Origin: a virus
Virus genome (UHGV): UHGV-0330108
Direction: 5' to 3' (one strand)
Length of the DNA stretch: 42,810 bases
Below are positions 684 through 41,855 of the stretch, piece after piece (positions within the stretch are counted from its first letter, which is position 1; the number at the start of each line of letters is the position of its first letter). The notes under the pieces were generated by a model. It did no database searches. It was not told where the DNA came from and was given only the letters and a program-made list of their open reading frames with translations. The translations under genes and the position numbers were made by a program.

Positions 684-767
684 ATGAGTCTTGAGGTGGT
701 TATTGGTCTGGTCGGTCTTAGTTACTTCATTGGGTTATTGGTTGGATTTCTGTGGGGTAGATATTAA
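684..767 (+). CDS. small hydrophobic peptide (27 aa, MSLEVVIGLVGLSYFIGLLVGFLWGRY)
   Basis: Not in the ORF track (<60 aa). ATG at 684 preceded by GGGGTGAGAG; stop TAA overlaps ATG of the next gene at 767; single predicted TM helix. Confidence 0.3.
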   Translation: MSLEVVIGLVGLSYFIGLLVGFLWGRY

Positions 768-27341: not shown

Positions 27342-27653
27342 TCAATTCCTTATATTGTTGGTGCAGGGATAACTATAATAGTTCGCTATTAGGTCGTCAA
27401 CCTCTTCTTTTGTTCCTACTACAAAAACATTTGCGTCACGTTTACGAAGCCGTTTGTGTTCCCGCAACTGATGGGCCTCCGGTTCCGTGTTTTCGTCTTT
27501 CTTCACCTCGACGAACCATATAACCCCTCCAGGAAGGGCTACCAGCAGGTCAGGCGCTCCGTTTCTACCCTCATAAGACAGCTTACGAACGAGGCCACCA
27601 ATGGCCTCGAATTGCTCTTTTGCGTATTTCTGTATTTTTCCTTCCGGGGTCAT
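27342..27653 (-). CDS. VRR-NUC domain nuclease
   Basis: ORF track frame 27342-27668; ATG at 27653; motif GAPDLLVALPGGVIWFVEVKKDE fits the VRR-NUC/PD-(D/E)XK signature. Confidence 0.7.
   Translation of the reverse strand: MTPEGKIQKYAKEQFEAIGGLVRKLSYEGRNGAPDLLVALPGGVIWFVEVKKDENTEPEAHQLREHKRLRKRDANVFVVGTKEEVDDLIANYYSYPCTNNIRN
27372..27400 (-). promoter_or_regulatory. sigma70-like promoter (minus: TTGACG-N17-TATAGT) with palindrome TAATAGTTCGCTATTA in the spacer
   Basis: Read on the reverse complement; lies inside the 3' end of the VRR-NUC gene, upstream of 27045-27338. Confidence 0.55.
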
Positions 27654-27802
27654 GAGCGCAGAACCCAAGTAAGGAAAGACCCTCCGAGAACGGCAACGCC
27701 CGCAAACTTAAAGAACAGGCCATAGCAGAACATCGCGGCTATTCCCGCACCGAGTAACAGTGCGATCATGGTTACTATCGTCCAAAATACAAACATTGTC
27801 AT
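27650..27802 (-). CDS. small membrane protein (50 aa)
   Basis: Not in the ORF track; ATG at 27802 with GGGAGGG 9 nt upstream; stop overlaps the VRR-NUC ATG (ATGA); hydrophobic. Confidence 0.35.
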   Translation of the reverse strand: MTMFVFWTIVTMIALLLGAGIAAMFCYGLFFKFAGVAVLGGSFLTWVLRS

Positions 27803-27884
27803 AATACACATCCCTCCCGTTTGGTATGCTCAATACCACATCGCGGACAGATTCGGCAGTCTTCTCCATAAAACCAGTAAATTT

Positions 27885-28016
27885 TCATTCCAGCACCCAT
27901 AGATAAATTGCGATGAACATGCCCAATATAGCAACCATCATGCCGTATTGGCCCTCGTGACAGTAGACACCGGCAGCGAATCCCGCCAGTACCGCGATAA
28001 TCAGTTTACTTGGCAT
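27885..28016 (-). CDS. small membrane protein (43 aa)
   Basis: Not in the ORF track; ATG at 28016 just after the DNA polymerase stop, GGAG upstream; hydrophobic. Confidence 0.35.
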   Translation of the reverse strand: MPSKLIIAVLAGFAAGVYCHEGQYGMMVAILGMFIAIYLWVLE

Positions 28017-30207
28017 AACGCTTCATCTCCGCACCTTCCGCGACCAAAGGGAACCCATCTGCCCACTCGGGCAACGCACACATTAATTTTTCCAGTTCAG
28101 CCACCGTGTATTCAGGTGTGTCTGGAGTTTCACACACCAGTTCATCGTGTACCGAAAGTACGATAGGATACCCACCGCCCTCAACATTAATCATCGCATA
28201 TGCGAGTAAATCACGGCACAGCGCCTGAACAATGTTTTCGCAGGCTTTGCCGCCGTGGGTGTACAGGGTAGTCCATTGGCGGGTTAACTGGTTTTCACCC
28301 TGATACTTGATTCGCACATTCGTGTTTACCCGGCCGTCTTCATCTGTCTCCTTTGTCACACTAACGCCGATTCCCGGATAAGAGAGGATGCGGCCCGACG
28401 GCAACTCCATGCATAACCACCAACCAGGAACCTTCCTTCCGGATGAATCAAATTCTACAGTACGCCATATGCGGATAGCCCTTTCGCCATTCCTGCGCAA
28501 GTGCGCTCCCGCCCAAAATTCACGACCTGGGTTACGGACAGCGGCTAAAATTCCGTCTTTAAGGTCACGCCAGAACGCTACTGTTTCCGGGTGTGACTCG
28601 CGCCACATACGCTTGATTGCGTCGCAGGTACGCCACACTTTTTTGTCCAGAATATACGATGGTCTGTCGTCCTTTTCACCTGGATGCGGTGGGCGCTTGG
28701 CTTCCTGGATGCGCGCCCATTCATATCCTCTCGCGGTGGCTGACCAGATGTGGTCGGGGAATGTACCGTCCATTGTTTTTGCCATCTCGATAAGGTCAAG
28801 ACCTAAGTTTTTGGCGAACGTAACGAACGCTCCGACGCCGCCCTCATAGCCGAGGCCAAGCTCGCAAGCCTTGCCTATCTGTCTGATTTCCTTGAAGTTT
28901 TTCTTAATATCGTCGGGGTCCATGCCGAACATCTTACCTGCGGTTACGCAGTAAATATCCAGTCCAGCGCGGAAAGTATCGAGCGCGGTTTCTTCACCAG
29001 CCAGCCACGCAAGCCCCCGGCCTTCAACGTTCGAGTAATCGGCGACGACAAACTTATGCCCTGCTTCCGGAATGATGCAACTACGCACCGTAGATGCTGT
29101 TAGCTTGGCTACATCGAAACGGCGATGAGCACGGCCTTTAAGTAACGCAGAAATGCCTTTATCCAGTTCATCATCGTGATAGTACCCACGCGCCAGGTTC
29201 TGCGGCTGGAAGCCTTTACCGGCCCATCGCAGAGTACGTTTTGCCCCGCCGTACTGCAAGCAACCACGACGGCGGTCGTCCGACGAGCGGCCCAACAGCA
29301 GCGGGTTATATTTCGTTGATGCGGTGGACGCCGCCCCGAGGCGCATTTCGATAATCGTACGCGCGTCGTCAGGTAAATCATCATCTGCCAGCAGGTCGTT
29401 AAGCGTAGACTTCTGCGCATTGTGGATGCGGTGCGCGGGCGCAAGTTCACGCAGAATAGGAAGGAAGTCTTTACCGGTAAGAGAGCCGCCGTATTTGCGT
29501 TGGGCTTCTTCCTGTAGCTGCGCTTTGTGCTTCTCCACGGCTTCAATTGCGGCTTCCGCCAGTGCAACGTCAACCTTAAACCCGCGGTCATTGATTACCT
29601 GGTCCAGTTCCAGCACACGGTCTTCGAACTCAGAGTTACCCCAACGCGGCAGTTTATGGAAGACTTCACGCATCGCAGTGATGTCGCTCACGGCGTACTT
29701 GATGAACAGCGCCCACTCGTCTGGGTGCGTTTCTGCTGTGTAACGGCGGATTTTGTAGTTCTTCGGCGTAGGTTTAGAAAAACGCTGAATCAGCGCCTTG
29801 CCGCGTTTATCTTTCGCGTTGTCTGCAGATACGCCCAGCACTTCGCACAACGCATCGAGAGAACCCGGAAGCGCGTGACGAAACGCCCAAATCATCGTAT
29901 CAATGGTGTTGCTTACCGGAATATCAAAGCCCCAGCAATGCTTCATGATGAGCCTGTCGAAAAGTCCACCGTTGTGCCATACCATCTTAATACGGCTGTT
30001 CGGCTTCACCAGACGGCGTAACGCGCGATGCAGGTCCCCTGGCATGTCGCTGCCGTCGGTGCAATCCCATACCTGTACAGGCTCGTCGTCAAAAGCATAG
30101 GTGCAGATAAGCACTTCTGTAGTCTGGTGTTCGGCGTAAGCGTAGGAACCGACTTTCTTTAAATCGGCTTCGGAGAATGTTTCAAAGTCTAAGAACAGGT
30201 AACTCAT
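28006..30207 (-). CDS. DNA polymerase, family A, with 3'-5' exonuclease domain
   Basis: Exo I motif LFLDFETFS; motif A VADYSNVEGRGLAWLAGE; motif B RQIGKACELGLGYEGG; motif C LSVHDELVCE. Confidence 0.9.
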   Translation of the reverse strand: MSYLFLDFETFSEADLKKVGSYAYAEHQTTEVLICTYAFDDEPVQVWDCTDGSDMPGDLHRALRRLVKPNSRIKMVWHNGGLFDRLIMKHCWGFDIPVSNTIDTMIWAFRHALPGSLDALCEVLGVSADNAKDKRGKALIQRFSKPTPKNYKIRRYTAETHPDEWALFIKYAVSDITAMREVFHKLPRWGNSEFEDRVLELDQVINDRGFKVDVALAEAAIEAVEKHKAQLQEEAQRKYGGSLTGKDFLPILRELAPAHRIHNAQKSTLNDLLADDDLPDDARTIIEMRLGAASTASTKYNPLLLGRSSDDRRRGCLQYGGAKRTLRWAGKGFQPQNLARGYYHDDELDKGISALLKGRAHRRFDVAKLTASTVRSCIIPEAGHKFVVADYSNVEGRGLAWLAGEETALDTFRAGLDIYCVTAGKMFGMDPDDIKKNFKEIRQIGKACELGLGYEGGVGAFVTFAKNLGLDLIEMAKTMDGTFPDHIWSATARGYEWARIQEAKRPPHPGEKDDRPSYILDKKVWRTCDAIKRMWRESHPETVAFWRDLKDGILAAVRNPGREFWAGAHLRRNGERAIRIWRTVEFDSSGRKVPGWWLCMELPSGRILSYPGIGVSVTKETDEDGRVNTNVRIKYQGENQLTRQWTTLYTHGGKACENIVQALCRDLLAYAMINVEGGGYPIVLSVHDELVCETPDTPEYTVAELEKLMCALPEWADGFPLVAEGAEMKRYAK

Positions 30208-30949: not shown

Positions 30950-30978
30950 ACTATAATAGTTAACTATTCAGGTGTCAA
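30950..30978 (-). promoter_or_regulatory. sigma70-like promoter (minus: TTGACA-N17-TATAGT) with perfect palindrome GAATAGTTAACTATTA in the spacer
   Basis: Consensus -35, near-consensus -10, 17-bp spacer; ~45 nt upstream of the ATG at 30896. Confidence 0.6.
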
Positions 30979-40453: not shown

Positions 40454-40743
40454 GCCTCGCAACTGACATCCTGAAACGAAGCGGTCTTGCGCCGCTGTCA
40501 CCGAGAGCGAACACCCAGATATACAAGCGTCGCCGTAACGCGCTGTACCCAGAGATTCAGGCCAGATGCAAAGCGGTCCGCGCCTGTGGATTCCAGAACG
40601 GGAAGGCCGTGAATCTCGGAGAGTTCAAGACAAAGGAACGCGCCGCTATCGCTAATCGGTTATTTAATTACTGGAAATCGCTGGGCTACGATGATATCCC
40701 GACGAAACCACAGAGACGACAATATATCTGGCGTCATAAATAA
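40450..40743 (+). CDS. hypothetical basic protein (97 aa)
   Basis: ORF track frame 40405-40743; ATG at 40450 overlaps the upstream stop. Confidence 0.5.
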   Translation: MSLATDILKRSGLAPLSPRANTQIYKRRRNALYPEIQARCKAVRACGFQNGKAVNLGEFKTKERAAIANRLFNYWKSLGYDDIPTKPQRRQYIWRHK

Positions 40744-40773
40744 ACCGTTATTAGGATAATTCCTACCCGTGGT

Positions 40774-40813
40774 ATCCTCCAGTTACTGCATACTTAATAC
40801 GCACCTGGAGGAT
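40774..40813 (+). promoter_or_regulatory. inverted repeat ATCCTCCAG-N22-CTGGAGGAT predicted to sequester the holin RBS
   Basis: The downstream arm contains the GGAGG 7 nt upstream of the holin TTG start; the upstream arm contains the complementary CCTCC. Confidence 0.4.
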
Positions 40814-40818
40814 TCATC

Positions 40819-41127
40819 TTGGATAAATTTACTGAAACAGTTACGGGGTGGCTTCTCGCTGCCGCACTAGCCGGAGGGGTAATCGGACTACGACAACATA
40901 AGTCCGTTATTTCTGGCCCTATCGATGGCTTCTGCTTTATCGCAACCGGCTTCACTTGCGCCGTATTTGGCGCACCCCTCGCGGCTCAATGGTTCGGCAT
41001 TACCGGGGAACGCGAGATAGCTGGCCTCGGATTTATCATCGCTGTCCTCTGGATGCCCATCTATTCTCGCCTTTCTGGCATCGTCGCCGGAGAATACATC
41101 GCACGTCGAGGAGGACCGCATGACTGA
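40819..41127 (+). CDS. putative holin (three predicted TM segments)
   Basis: TTG start with GGAGGA 7 nt upstream; three hydrophobic helices; sits upstream of the endolysin. Confidence 0.55.
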   Translation: MDKFTETVTGWLLAAALAGGVIGLRQHKSVISGPIDGFCFIATGFTCAVFGAPLAAQWFGITGEREIAGLGFIIAVLWMPIYSRLSGIVAGEYIARRGGPHD

Positions 41128-41392
41128 GCTATTCTGGTTTGTCGTAATGCTGGCAATGGGCGCTTCGTCCCTGTTCAACGTGTATAATGAACGTGTGGGC
41201 GACGGATTATTTGGCCGTGTGCTCTATATCCTGACCGCTATTGTCTGCGCCGCAGGATGTATCCACCTGTTACAGGGCAGCATGTCACCTACGCTGCCTG
41301 AGACATTAATAACATTAGTTGCGCTGCGTCAGATTCGTCAGGCGTGGTTGTCGTACGGAGGACATAAGCGTGTCTCGAAACATTTCAGATAA
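41120..41392 (+). CDS. second lysis-cassette membrane protein (holin/antiholin-like, two TM segments)
   Basis: ATG overlaps the holin stop; hydrophobic helices LFWFVVMLAMGASSLF and VLYILTAIVCAAGCIHLL. Confidence 0.45.
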   Translation: MTELFWFVVMLAMGASSLFNVYNERVGDGLFGRVLYILTAIVCAAGCIHLLQGSMSPTLPETLITLVALRQIRQAWLSYGGHKRVSKHFR

Positions 41393-41855
41393 TGGATTGC
41401 ATTTTACCGCCGCGTTCGAGGGATTCCGCGGAACTGCGTACCGCGCGACGCCGAACGAGAAGTATCTGACCATCGGCTACGGAAGCTATGGTCCGCACGT
41501 TAAGACGGGCCAGACCATCACCCCGGGGCAGGGCCTCCTGTTACTGAATCGCGATATGGCTAAAGCCGTAGCTGCGGTTGACGCAGCAGCTCACCATTCA
41601 CTGACACAGGCACAGTTCGACGCCATGTGTGACCTTGTATACAACGCGGGGGCTGGTGTGATTGCCGCTACTACCGGTACGGGCAAGGCGCTGCGTTCTG
41701 GTGATATCGCGACGCTGCGGGCTAAGCTGACGCTGTTCATCAACCAGAACGGCAAACCGTTACTCGGCCTGCGTCGCCGCACGGCTGGACGGCTGGCGCT
41801 GTTCGATGGTAAACCGTGGCAGGAGGCAGAGGTTATTGGGAGGGCTGTTAAGTGA
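41370..41855 (+). CDS. endolysin (phage lysozyme, GH24-like)
   Basis: ORF track frame 41319-41855; GTG at 41370 with GGAGGA 7 nt upstream; motifs ISDNGLHFTAAFEGFRGTAY...TIGYG and C-terminal GLRRRTAGRLALF. Confidence 0.85.
   Translation: MSRNISDNGLHFTAAFEGFRGTAYRATPNEKYLTIGYGSYGPHVKTGQTITPGQGLLLLNRDMAKAVAAVDAAAHHSLTQAQFDAMCDLVYNAGAGVIAATTGTGKALRSGDIATLRAKLTLFINQNGKPLLGLRRRTAGRLALFDGKPWQEAEVIGRAVK

What the first reader, a model, noticed from the sequence alone, without database searches (positions are those of the whole stretch)
27650..28016. Two unannotated, translationally coupled small membrane-protein genes in the replication arm
ORFs of 43 aa (27885-28016) and 50 aa (27650-27802) lie on the minus strand between the DNA polymerase and the VRR-NUC gene. 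Both are strongly hydrophobic, have GGAG-type RBSs, and the second overlaps the VRR-NUC start (ATGA). They fall below the 60-aa cutoff of the ORF track.
Basis: seen in the sequence. Interest (0 to 1): 0.45.

Follow-up and report, generated by a model that had tools for sequence, protein, structure and literature searches.

The report
Known small phage membrane-protein genes

Summary
ORF A (43 aa, 27885-28016) and ORF C (50 aa, 27650-27802) lie on the minus strand, are strongly hydrophobic, carry GGAG-type ribosome-binding sites, and C's stop overlaps the nuclease start (ATGA).

B overlaps both neighbours by ATGA, so the real unit is a chain of overlapping cistrons: polymerase, A, B, C, nuclease.

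All three frames are under purifying selection (dN/dS 0.09-0.20, like the flanking genes; off-frames 0.75-2.9). They match full-length PHROG families 10404, 38225 and 14925, all of unknown function. They are annotated as hypothetical proteins in many Kagunavirus and Jerseyvirus records, so they are not unannotated as a family.

Both membrane families are confined to Guernseyvirinae. A has no remote relative among 1.84 billion representative proteins.

A and C are dispensable. The slot is mosaic (C, a 23-25 aa membrane peptide, a 64 aa soluble protein, an HNH nuclease, or nothing), and viable phage Ent1 keeps only a fusion of seven A codons to B.

Most likely they are accessory inner-membrane microproteins made early by coupled translation. 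I infer, without a test, that they act on a membrane target in host takeover or exclusion.

This is ordinary, low-novelty phage content.

The parts
28006..30207 (-). Family-A DNA polymerase gene (733 aa). Its last 11 nt overlap the start of ORF A.
   Evidence: ORF list. Annotated as DNA polymerase in all relatives.
28027..28030 (-). GGAG Shine-Dalgarno sequence for ORF A, lying inside the polymerase coding sequence, 10 nt before the ATG.
   Evidence: Sequence. Duplex energy -6.6 kcal/mol, about the 5th percentile of random positions. GGAG or GAGG is kept in 30 loci although the polymerase C-terminus varies.
27885..28016 (-). ORF A, 43 aa: a hydrophobic microprotein with two helices, a G12xxxG16 motif and the conserved polar loop Y-C-H-E-G-Q-Y. 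PHROG 10404.
   Evidence: PHROG match E 4.5e-32, full length. Found in 224 phage records. dN/dS 0.20, P 4e-9. AlphaFold helices 2-20 and 22-42, pLDDT 87. Insertion energies. No remote relatives.
27799..27888 (-). PHROG 38225.
   Evidence: PHROG match E 4.5e-21. Found in 445 phage records, the most conserved of the three. dN/dS 0.09, P 3e-11. Only weak, non-significant zinc-finger or zinc-ribbon similarities in the PDB.
27812..27818 (-). GGGAGGG Shine-Dalgarno sequence for ORF C, lying inside ORF B, 9 nt before the ATG at 27802.
   Evidence: Duplex energy -10.8 kcal/mol, beyond the 1st percentile of random positions. GAGGGG is conserved in all loci, whichever cassette follows.
27650..27802 (-). 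ORF C, 50 aa: a very hydrophobic microprotein with an invariant G18-A19-G20 and G41 (G40 nearly invariant). Its stop overlaps the nuclease start. PHROG 14925.
   Evidence: PHROG match E 1.9e-32, full length. Found in 121 phage records. 86 protein clusters, nearly all of 45-52 aa. dN/dS 0.16, P 6e-8. AlphaFold predicts a helix over residues 2-49, pLDDT 85.
27342..27653 (-). VRR-NUC / PD-(D/E)xK-type nuclease gene (103 aa). Its ATG has no properly spaced SD of its own when it follows C, so its translation probably depends on coupling.
   Evidence: PHROG 93 endonuclease, E 3e-30. Annotated as VRR-NUC or Holliday junction resolvase in relatives. SD duplex only -3.1 kcal/mol. Homology across cassettes begins exactly at this ATG.
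30950..30978 (-). Sigma-70-like promoter candidate (11 of 12 consensus positions), the likely start of the transcript that carries the polymerase, A, B, C and the nuclease.
   Evidence: Consensus scan only. No minus-strand terminator-like site was found between here and 25267-25248.

Best explanation
A and C are real, translated accessory genes of a Kagunavirus-like (Guernseyvirinae) siphophage.

Shown by sequence:
- They sit in one minus-strand replication transcript as links of a chain of overlapping cistrons: polymerase (-11 nt), A (ATGA), B (ATGA), C (ATGA), nuclease.
- A and C have their own SD sites. B and the nuclease have weak ones, so they are probably translated by termination-reinitiation from the upstream ORF.

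Inferred from sequence and models:
- Both products are almost entirely hydrophobic helices, each with one strongly membrane-competent segment and one shorter, marginal one.
- Both carry GxxxG or small-xxx-small packing motifs, and A has a conserved polar loop.
- They should therefore insert into the host inner membrane as 1-2-span microproteins.

Inferred from comparison with relatives:
- They are lineage-restricted and frequently lost or swapped among viable close relatives, so they are not part of the replication machinery.

Not shown: I judge it most likely that they bind and modulate a larger inner-membrane protein. This is how bacterial small membrane proteins such as AcrZ, MgrB and SgrT work, and how T4 Imm-type exclusion proteins work. 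The purpose would be host takeover, exclusion of competing phages, or evasion of a membrane-based defence.
For: - Coordinates, sequences and overlaps.
- Purifying selection only in the named frames: pooled dN/dS is A 0.20, B 0.09, C 0.16, against polymerase C-terminus 0.10 and nuclease 0.12. Off-frames give 0.75-2.9. The excess of synonymous events has P = 4e-9, 3e-11 and 6e-8.
- Full-length PHROG matches. Hundreds of phage records hold them.
- Hydrophobicity far above chance. Insertion energies: A 26-42 is -2.75 and A 5-19 is -0.77; C 3-17 is -2.86 and C 34-48 is +1.2.
- Confident helical models.
- Invariant G12 and a nearly invariant loop in A; invariant G18-A19-G20 and G41, with G40 nearly invariant, in C.
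- SD strengths, and the weak SD at the nuclease start.
- In every cassette architecture the upstream stop overlaps the nuclease ATG.
- Dispensability: the slot is mosaic in 30 loci. A is in 224 and C in 121 of the 445 records that hold B. Isolated phage Ent1 has only a 36-aa fusion of seven A codons to B between the polymerase and the nuclease.
- Restricted to Guernseyvirinae.
- The lysis cassette, with two holins, lies elsewhere.
Against: - There is no direct evidence of translation, membrane insertion or any phenotype. No paper on these genes was found.
- Topology is uncertain. The second hydrophobic segment of each protein is short or marginal, and AlphaFold draws C as one 48-residue helix.
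- The proposed mode of action rests only on analogy and on the accessory distribution. No partner protein is identified.
- The dN/dS values pool non-independent pairs of related sequences.
Confidence: 0.55

Rival explanations
1. Membrane tether for replication. A and/or C, perhaps together with B, anchor the replisome or the nuclease to the inner membrane, as phi29 p16.7 and p1 do in Bacillus.
For: The genes sit between the DNA polymerase and a structure-specific nuclease, in the same transcript and translationally chained to both.
Against: A and C have essentially no soluble domain that could bind DNA or protein. Both are absent from many viable relatives, including the isolated phage Ent1. 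Neither co-occurs obligatorily with the other.
Confidence: 0.07
2. Lysis-related or membrane-depolarising peptides: holin, antiholin or pinholin-like proteins, or type-I-toxin-like peptides, that permeabilise the inner membrane.
For: Their size, extreme hydrophobicity and glycine-rich helices resemble pinholins and Hok/TisB-type peptides.
Against: The dedicated lysis cassette (two holins plus an endolysin) lies on the other strand about 13 kb away, at window ~40819-41855. A and C lack the charged C-terminal tail typical of holins. They are co-transcribed with early or middle replication genes, where hole formation would be harmful.
Confidence: 0.08
3. The peptides themselves do not matter. The ORFs exist only as translated spacers that relay ribosomes from the polymerase to the nuclease.
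For: All junctions overlap in all architectures, and the nuclease start after C lacks a usable SD.
Against: The amino-acid sequences are constrained (dN/dS 0.16-0.20), with invariant glycines and a conserved loop. Genomes without A or C achieve coupling with far shorter arrangements.
Confidence: 0.07
4. Chance ORFs or a non-coding RNA element rather than genes.
For: They are very short ORFs, and no Pfam family matches them.
Against: The frames are conserved in 121-445 records. Purifying selection is frame-specific. Chance expectation is 0.02 such ORFs per window. There is no Rfam match and no unusual RNA folding, z = -1.1.
Confidence: 0.02

Closest known systems
PHROG families 10404 (A), 38225 (B) and 14925 (C): hypothetical proteins of Kagunavirus and Jerseyvirus, e.g. 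fFiEco02 FE2_041/040/039 and Bas73_0041/0040/0039
   Same: Full-length matches with the same lengths, order and overlaps, in the same position between the DNA polymerase and the VRR-NUC nuclease. A is 100% identical to the translated sequence at the same site in phages KMB35 and fTaEco01.
   Different: Nothing substantive. This window has an extra in-frame ATG 9 nt upstream of C and one 12 nt upstream of B, and neither is conserved.
Bacterial small inner-membrane regulators (AcrZ 49 aa, MgrB 47 aa, SgrT 43 aa) and small phage membrane proteins (T4 Ac 51 aa, T4 Imm 83 aa). These comparisons come from my own knowledge.
   Same: The size class, a nearly all-hydrophobic helical build and small-xxx-small packing motifs. 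T4 Ac appears among the non-significant fold matches (E 3.4).
   Different: There is no sequence or significant fold similarity. No partner or phenotype is known for A or C.
phi29 p16.7 and p1, membrane organisers of phage DNA replication (from my own knowledge)
   Same: They are membrane proteins encoded among early replication genes.
   Different: p16.7 has a cytoplasmic DNA-binding domain, whereas A and C have no soluble domain and are dispensable across relatives.
Class II holins and pinholins (e.g. S21 68)
   Same: Two short hydrophobic helices with glycine-rich faces.
   Different: A and C are not next to the endolysin, have no charged C-terminal tail, and are expressed with replication genes. 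The phage has its own two holins elsewhere.

Membership tests
PHROG 10404 (ORF A) | Significant full-length match to the family profile | tested here: met
   E 4.5e-32, residues 1-43 against profile positions 1-43 of 43.
PHROG 14925 (ORF C) | Significant full-length match to the family profile | tested here: met
   E 1.9e-32, residues 1-50 against profile positions 1-50 of 50.
PHROG 38225 (ORF B) | Significant match to the family profile | tested here: met
   E 4.5e-21, residues 1-28 against profile positions 5-32 of 36.
Integral membrane microprotein (generic class) | At least one segment predicted to insert into the membrane | tested here: met
Kyte-Doolittle 19-residue windows score 2.16 and 2.27. 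Experimental insertion was not tested.
Integral membrane microprotein (generic class) | Two-span hairpin topology | tested here: inconclusive
   The second segments are short or marginal: A 5-19 at -0.77 and C 34-48 at +1.2. AlphaFold gives two helices for A but a single long helix for C.
Holin / pinholin | Encoded next to the endolysin in the lysis cassette | tested here: not met
   The holins and endolysin of the close relative Bas73 are at 40615-41764 on the other strand, which corresponds to window ORFs 40819-41855.
Holin / pinholin | Hydrophilic, charged C-terminal tail | tested here: not met
   A ends ...WVLE and C ends ...WVLRS.
Lipoprotein-type exclusion proteins (T5 Llp, T1 Cor) | Signal peptide followed by a lipobox [LVI][ASTVI][GAS]C with an invariant Cys | tested here: not met
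   A has G-V-Y-C, with Tyr at position -1. Cys19 is replaced by Tyr or Arg in several homologues.
phi29 p16.7-like replication organiser | Membrane anchor plus a cytoplasmic DNA-binding or dimerisation domain | tested here: not met
   There is no soluble domain in the 43 or 50 residues.
Pfam EMC6 (PF07019) | Score at or above the gathering threshold | tested here: not met
   19.8 bits against a cut-off of 23.3. This is most likely compositional similarity between glycine/alanine-rich hairpins.
Zinc-ribbon / zinc-knuckle microprotein (ORF B) | Four conserved metal ligands | tested here: inconclusive
   The candidate ligands are C11, C14, C17, H21 and C27. Single loci have lost C11, C17 or H21. 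The PDB gives only weak zinc-finger hits, best E 0.037.
Superinfection-exclusion membrane proteins (T4 Imm type) | Blocks DNA entry of a superinfecting phage | not testable with these tools
   This needs infection assays.

The most novel reading that the evidence does not exclude
A and C are lineage-specific microproteins, possibly born de novo, that block DNA entry by competing Guernseyvirinae or disarm a membrane-embedded host defence. The always-retained Cys-rich B would be the core partner, and A-B-C would form a modular membrane-plus-zinc-microprotein unit whose cassettes are exchanged exactly at the ATGA junctions.
Probability: 0.1. Interest if true: 0.5.

Novelty: already known. Interest (0 to 1): 0.18.

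Why it matters
The finding adds little new. The genes are already catalogued as hypothetical proteins, with identical or near-identical copies in GenBank. Its practical value is for annotation and engineering. First, the stretch between the polymerase and the nuclease holds three coupled microgenes, not two, and B is often left unannotated in Jerseyvirus records. Second, A and C are naturally dispensable, so the slot is a candidate payload site in Kagunavirus chassis phages. Third, any edit there must keep the stop/start overlaps, because the nuclease start after C has no usable SD. The function of such conserved phage membrane microproteins remains an open general question, but this locus offers no special handle on it.

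Tried and rejected
- Pfam: no family reached threshold for A, B or C. The EMC6 and SPC12 hits are sub-threshold and I rejected them as compositional.
- Word-indexed search of 5.8 billion proteins: it returned only close relatives on ~40-45 kb phage contigs, at least 73% identical apart from a few partial or fused variants.
- Exhaustive profile search with the A alignment against 1.84 billion representatives: it returned only the family itself plus truncated or fused variants.
- Foldseek of the A model against the PDB and BFVD: no match with E below 0.7, only generic helical hairpins.
- PDB sequence search with B: weak, non-significant zinc-finger or zinc-ribbon hits.
- RNA-element alternative: no Rfam hit and no unusual folding.
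- Alternative starts. The C ATG at 27811 was rejected because the SD abuts it and it is not an ATG in relatives. The nuclease TTG at 27668 was rejected because it is not conserved and homology across cassettes begins at the ATG. The B ATG at 27900 was rejected because Jerseyvirus loci have an in-frame TGA just before the conserved ATG.
- Out-of-frame 53-aa ORF at 27708-27869: it is interrupted in most relatives and shows no selection in that frame.
- Literature searches on Kagunavirus and Jerseyvirus small membrane proteins, transcriptomics and essentiality found nothing on these genes.

Full report
**What the window is.** The region is 88% identical to Escherichia phage fBC-Eco01. It matches about 400 Kagunavirus and Jerseyvirus (Guernseyvirinae) genomes. 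The finding lies in the minus-strand replication block. That block holds a Gp2.5-like SSB, a family-A DNA polymerase (28006-30207), a small nuclease annotated as VRR-NUC or Holliday junction resolvase (27342-27653), and an SNF2-type helicase.

**Check of the observation.** Both ORFs exist exactly as described.
- A is 27885-28016, 43 aa, GRAVY 1.35.
- C is 27650-27802, 50 aa, GRAVY 1.67.
- A has GGAG 10 nt upstream (duplex -6.6 kcal/mol).
- C has GGGAGGG 9 nt upstream (-10.8 kcal/mol, beyond the 1st percentile of random positions).
- C's TGA overlaps the nuclease ATG.
- These are the only two ORFs of 40-60 aa in the window with GRAVY above 1.3. Shuffled windows give 0.02 on average.

The 82 nt between A and C are not a spacer. 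They encode ORF B (27799-27888, 29 aa, MKIYWFYGEDCRICPRCGIEHTKREGCVL). B's ATG overlaps A's TGA, and B's TGA overlaps C's ATG. A's ATG also lies 11 nt inside the polymerase gene. The real unit is therefore a chain of overlapping cistrons: polymerase, A, B, C, nuclease.

**Are they genes?** I compared 30 related loci: 27 IMG/VR contigs and three GenBank phages.
- A is intact in 28 of the 30 related loci, B in 29 (once as a fusion to the first seven codons of A) and C in 17.
- Pooled Nei-Gojobori dN/dS is 0.20 for A, 0.09 for B and 0.16 for C. The polymerase C-terminus gives 0.10 and the nuclease 0.12.
- The two other frames of each ORF give 0.75-2.9.
- A minimum-event count shows an excess of synonymous change, with P = 4e-9, 3e-11 and 6e-8, in the named frame only.
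- There is no Rfam match and no unusual RNA structure.
- The 53-aa out-of-frame ORF at 27708-27869 is not conserved.

All three are real coding genes.

**Are they unannotated or new?** They are not.
- Each matches a full-length PHROG family of unknown function: 10404, 38225 and 14925, with E from 1e-21 to 1e-32.
- tblastn finds A in 224 phage records, B in 445 and C in 121. Nearly all are Kagunavirus or Jerseyvirus phages of Escherichia and Salmonella.
- Most rows shown for A and C carry a 'hypothetical protein' feature under the match. Some records, such as K1G, K1H and SETP3, lack it, and B is often unannotated in Jerseyvirus.
- fFiEco02 (FE2_041/040/039) and Bas73 (0041/0040/0039) annotate all three.
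- A is 100% identical to the translated sequence at the same site in phages KMB35 and fTaEco01.

**Phylogenetic reach.** The large protein database returns only close relatives, at least 73% identical apart from a few partial or fused variants. Nearly all are the same length, and the longest contigs are ~40-45 kb phage genomes. An exhaustive profile search with the A alignment against 1.84 billion representatives returns only the family itself and truncated or fused variants. Pfam gives nothing above threshold. Fold searches give only generic helical hairpins at E above 0.7. A and C are lineage-restricted ORFan families.

**Protein anatomy.**
- *A.* The AlphaFold model is confident (pLDDT 87), with helices at 2-20 and 22-42. 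Residues 26-42 form a strongly membrane-competent segment (dG about -2.75), and residues 5-19 a shorter one (-0.77). G12 is invariant within a G12xxxG16 motif, and the loop Y18-C-H-E-G-Q-Y24 is nearly invariant.
- *C.* The model shows helix over residues 2-49 (pLDDT 85). Residues 3-23 are a strong membrane segment and residues 34-48 a marginal one (+1.2). G18-A19-G20 and G41 are invariant, and G40 nearly so.
- Membrane insertion is therefore likely. A two-span hairpin is plausible but not established.
- A's Cys19 is not a lipobox cysteine: the preceding residues are G-V-Y, and Cys19 is replaced by Tyr or Arg in some homologues.
- *B.* It is soluble and Cys/His-rich, with only weak zinc-finger or zinc-ribbon similarities.

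**Expression logic.**
- A sigma-70-like promoter (11 of 12 positions) lies at 30978-30950. No minus-strand terminator-like site appears before 25267-25248, so A, B and C are probably co-transcribed with the polymerase and the nuclease.
- In all 30 loci the junctions are conserved: polymerase/A at -11 nt, A/B at -4, and B/next gene at -4. Whatever gene precedes the nuclease ends in an overlap with its ATG (-1, -4, -8 or -11).
- After C, the nuclease start has no usable SD (-3.1 kcal/mol, near the random median). After the other cassettes a GGAG or AAGG lies at a suitable distance.
- Nuclease translation downstream of C thus probably relies on termination-reinitiation. This is an inference from sequence.

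**Dispensability.** The slot between B and the nuclease is mosaic. It can hold:
- C;
- a 23-25 aa single-span peptide, possibly a deletion derivative of C;
- a 64 aa soluble protein (PHROG 25645), alone or together with C;
- an HNH endonuclease;
- nothing at all.

HNH genes also sit between the polymerase and A in some genomes. In phage vB_SenS-Ent1 a single unannotated 36-aa ORF lies between the polymerase and the nuclease: MLSKLIIYYFHEEDCRICPRCGIEHTKREGCIDEYA, which is seven codons of A fused to B; a similar 33-aa fusion occurs in L008, where C is retained. Ent1 is an isolated, viable phage. A's membrane body and C are therefore non-essential, while B is retained in all 445 records. A and C also occur independently of each other.

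**Mechanism.** The best-supported reading has three parts.
- A and C are accessory inner-membrane microproteins.
- They are made during the replication phase by coupled translation.
- They are not part of the replication machinery.

I infer the mode of action by analogy, and it is untested. I think they most likely bind a larger inner-membrane protein through small-xxx-small helix packing. AcrZ, MgrB, SgrT and T4 Imm/Ac act this way (from my own knowledge). The purpose would be host takeover, exclusion of competing phages or evasion of a defence.

The rivals are each weakened:
- A phi29 p16.7-like replication tether: A and C have no soluble domain and are dispensable.
- Holin-like or depolarising peptides: the lysis cassette with two holins is elsewhere, and A and C have no charged tail.
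- Pure translational spacers: the peptide sequences are under constraint.
- Chance ORFs: refuted by the selection tests.

No literature on these genes was found.

**Verdict.** The feature is real and already catalogued, its function is unknown, and its novelty is low.

Noticed in passing
window 684-767 (+): A 27-aa, very hydrophobic ORF (MSLEVVIGLVGLSYFIGLLVGFLWGRY, GRAVY 1.52) with an SD-like GGGGTGAGAG just upstream. Its TAA overlaps the next gene's ATG (TAATG). It is conserved by tblastn in 63 phage records, down to 77% identity, and none of the 8 records shown has a feature under the match. Unlike A, B and C, this looks like a genuinely unannotated small membrane-peptide gene.
   Followed up: partly
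window 27799-27888 (-): ORF B, a 29-aa Cys-rich (CxxCxxC-H-C) microprotein between the two ORFs of the finding. It is the most conserved gene of the trio (445 records, dN/dS 0.09), and many Jerseyvirus records leave it unannotated.
   Followed up: yes
L006 1953-2648; L020 2265-2780; L026 and L028 2508-3005; L031 (Bas73) 27518-28213: The interval between the polymerase and the nuclease is a hotspot for HNH or endonuclease-VII-type homing endonuclease insertions. They occur either between the polymerase and A or between B and the nuclease, always with overlapping or closely abutting junctions.
   Followed up: partly
L009, L027, L001, L015, L017 and L019 (e.g. L009 2810-3004): An alternative 63-64 aa soluble Cys-containing cassette (PHROG 25645; sub-threshold A2L zinc-ribbon hit) occupies the slot instead of C or in front of it.
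   Followed up: partly
L005 2924-3001, L030 2924-3001, L018 2930-3001: A 23-25 aa single-span peptide replaces C. The 25-aa form (L005, L030) shares C's first codons (ATGACAATG) and a GTTTxxxGGxGTTGCCGTT stretch, so it may be an internal-deletion derivative of C.
   Followed up: partly
window 27372-27400 (-): A sigma-70-like promoter (TTGACG-17-TATAGT, 10 of 12 positions) lies inside the 3' end of the nuclease gene, upstream of the 97-aa ORF. fBC-Eco01 carries a PHIRE-predicted phage promoter at the equivalent place.
   Followed up: no
L032 (Salmonella phage vB_SenS-Ent1, NC_019539) 1-599 and 1193-1284: The DNA polymerase and helicase of Ent1 are annotated with 'extein' mat_peptides, which means they contain inteins. 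The window's polymerase (733 aa) has none.
   Followed up: no
window 27342-27653 (-): My Pfam scan of the 103-aa nuclease did not return VRR_NUC, only a weak pPIWI_RE_REase hit (E 0.0018). PHROG 93 (endonuclease) matches at E 3e-30, and relatives annotate the gene as VRR-NUC or Holliday junction resolvase. The PDLLV...VEVK motif fits a PD-(D/E)xK nuclease.
   Followed up: partly
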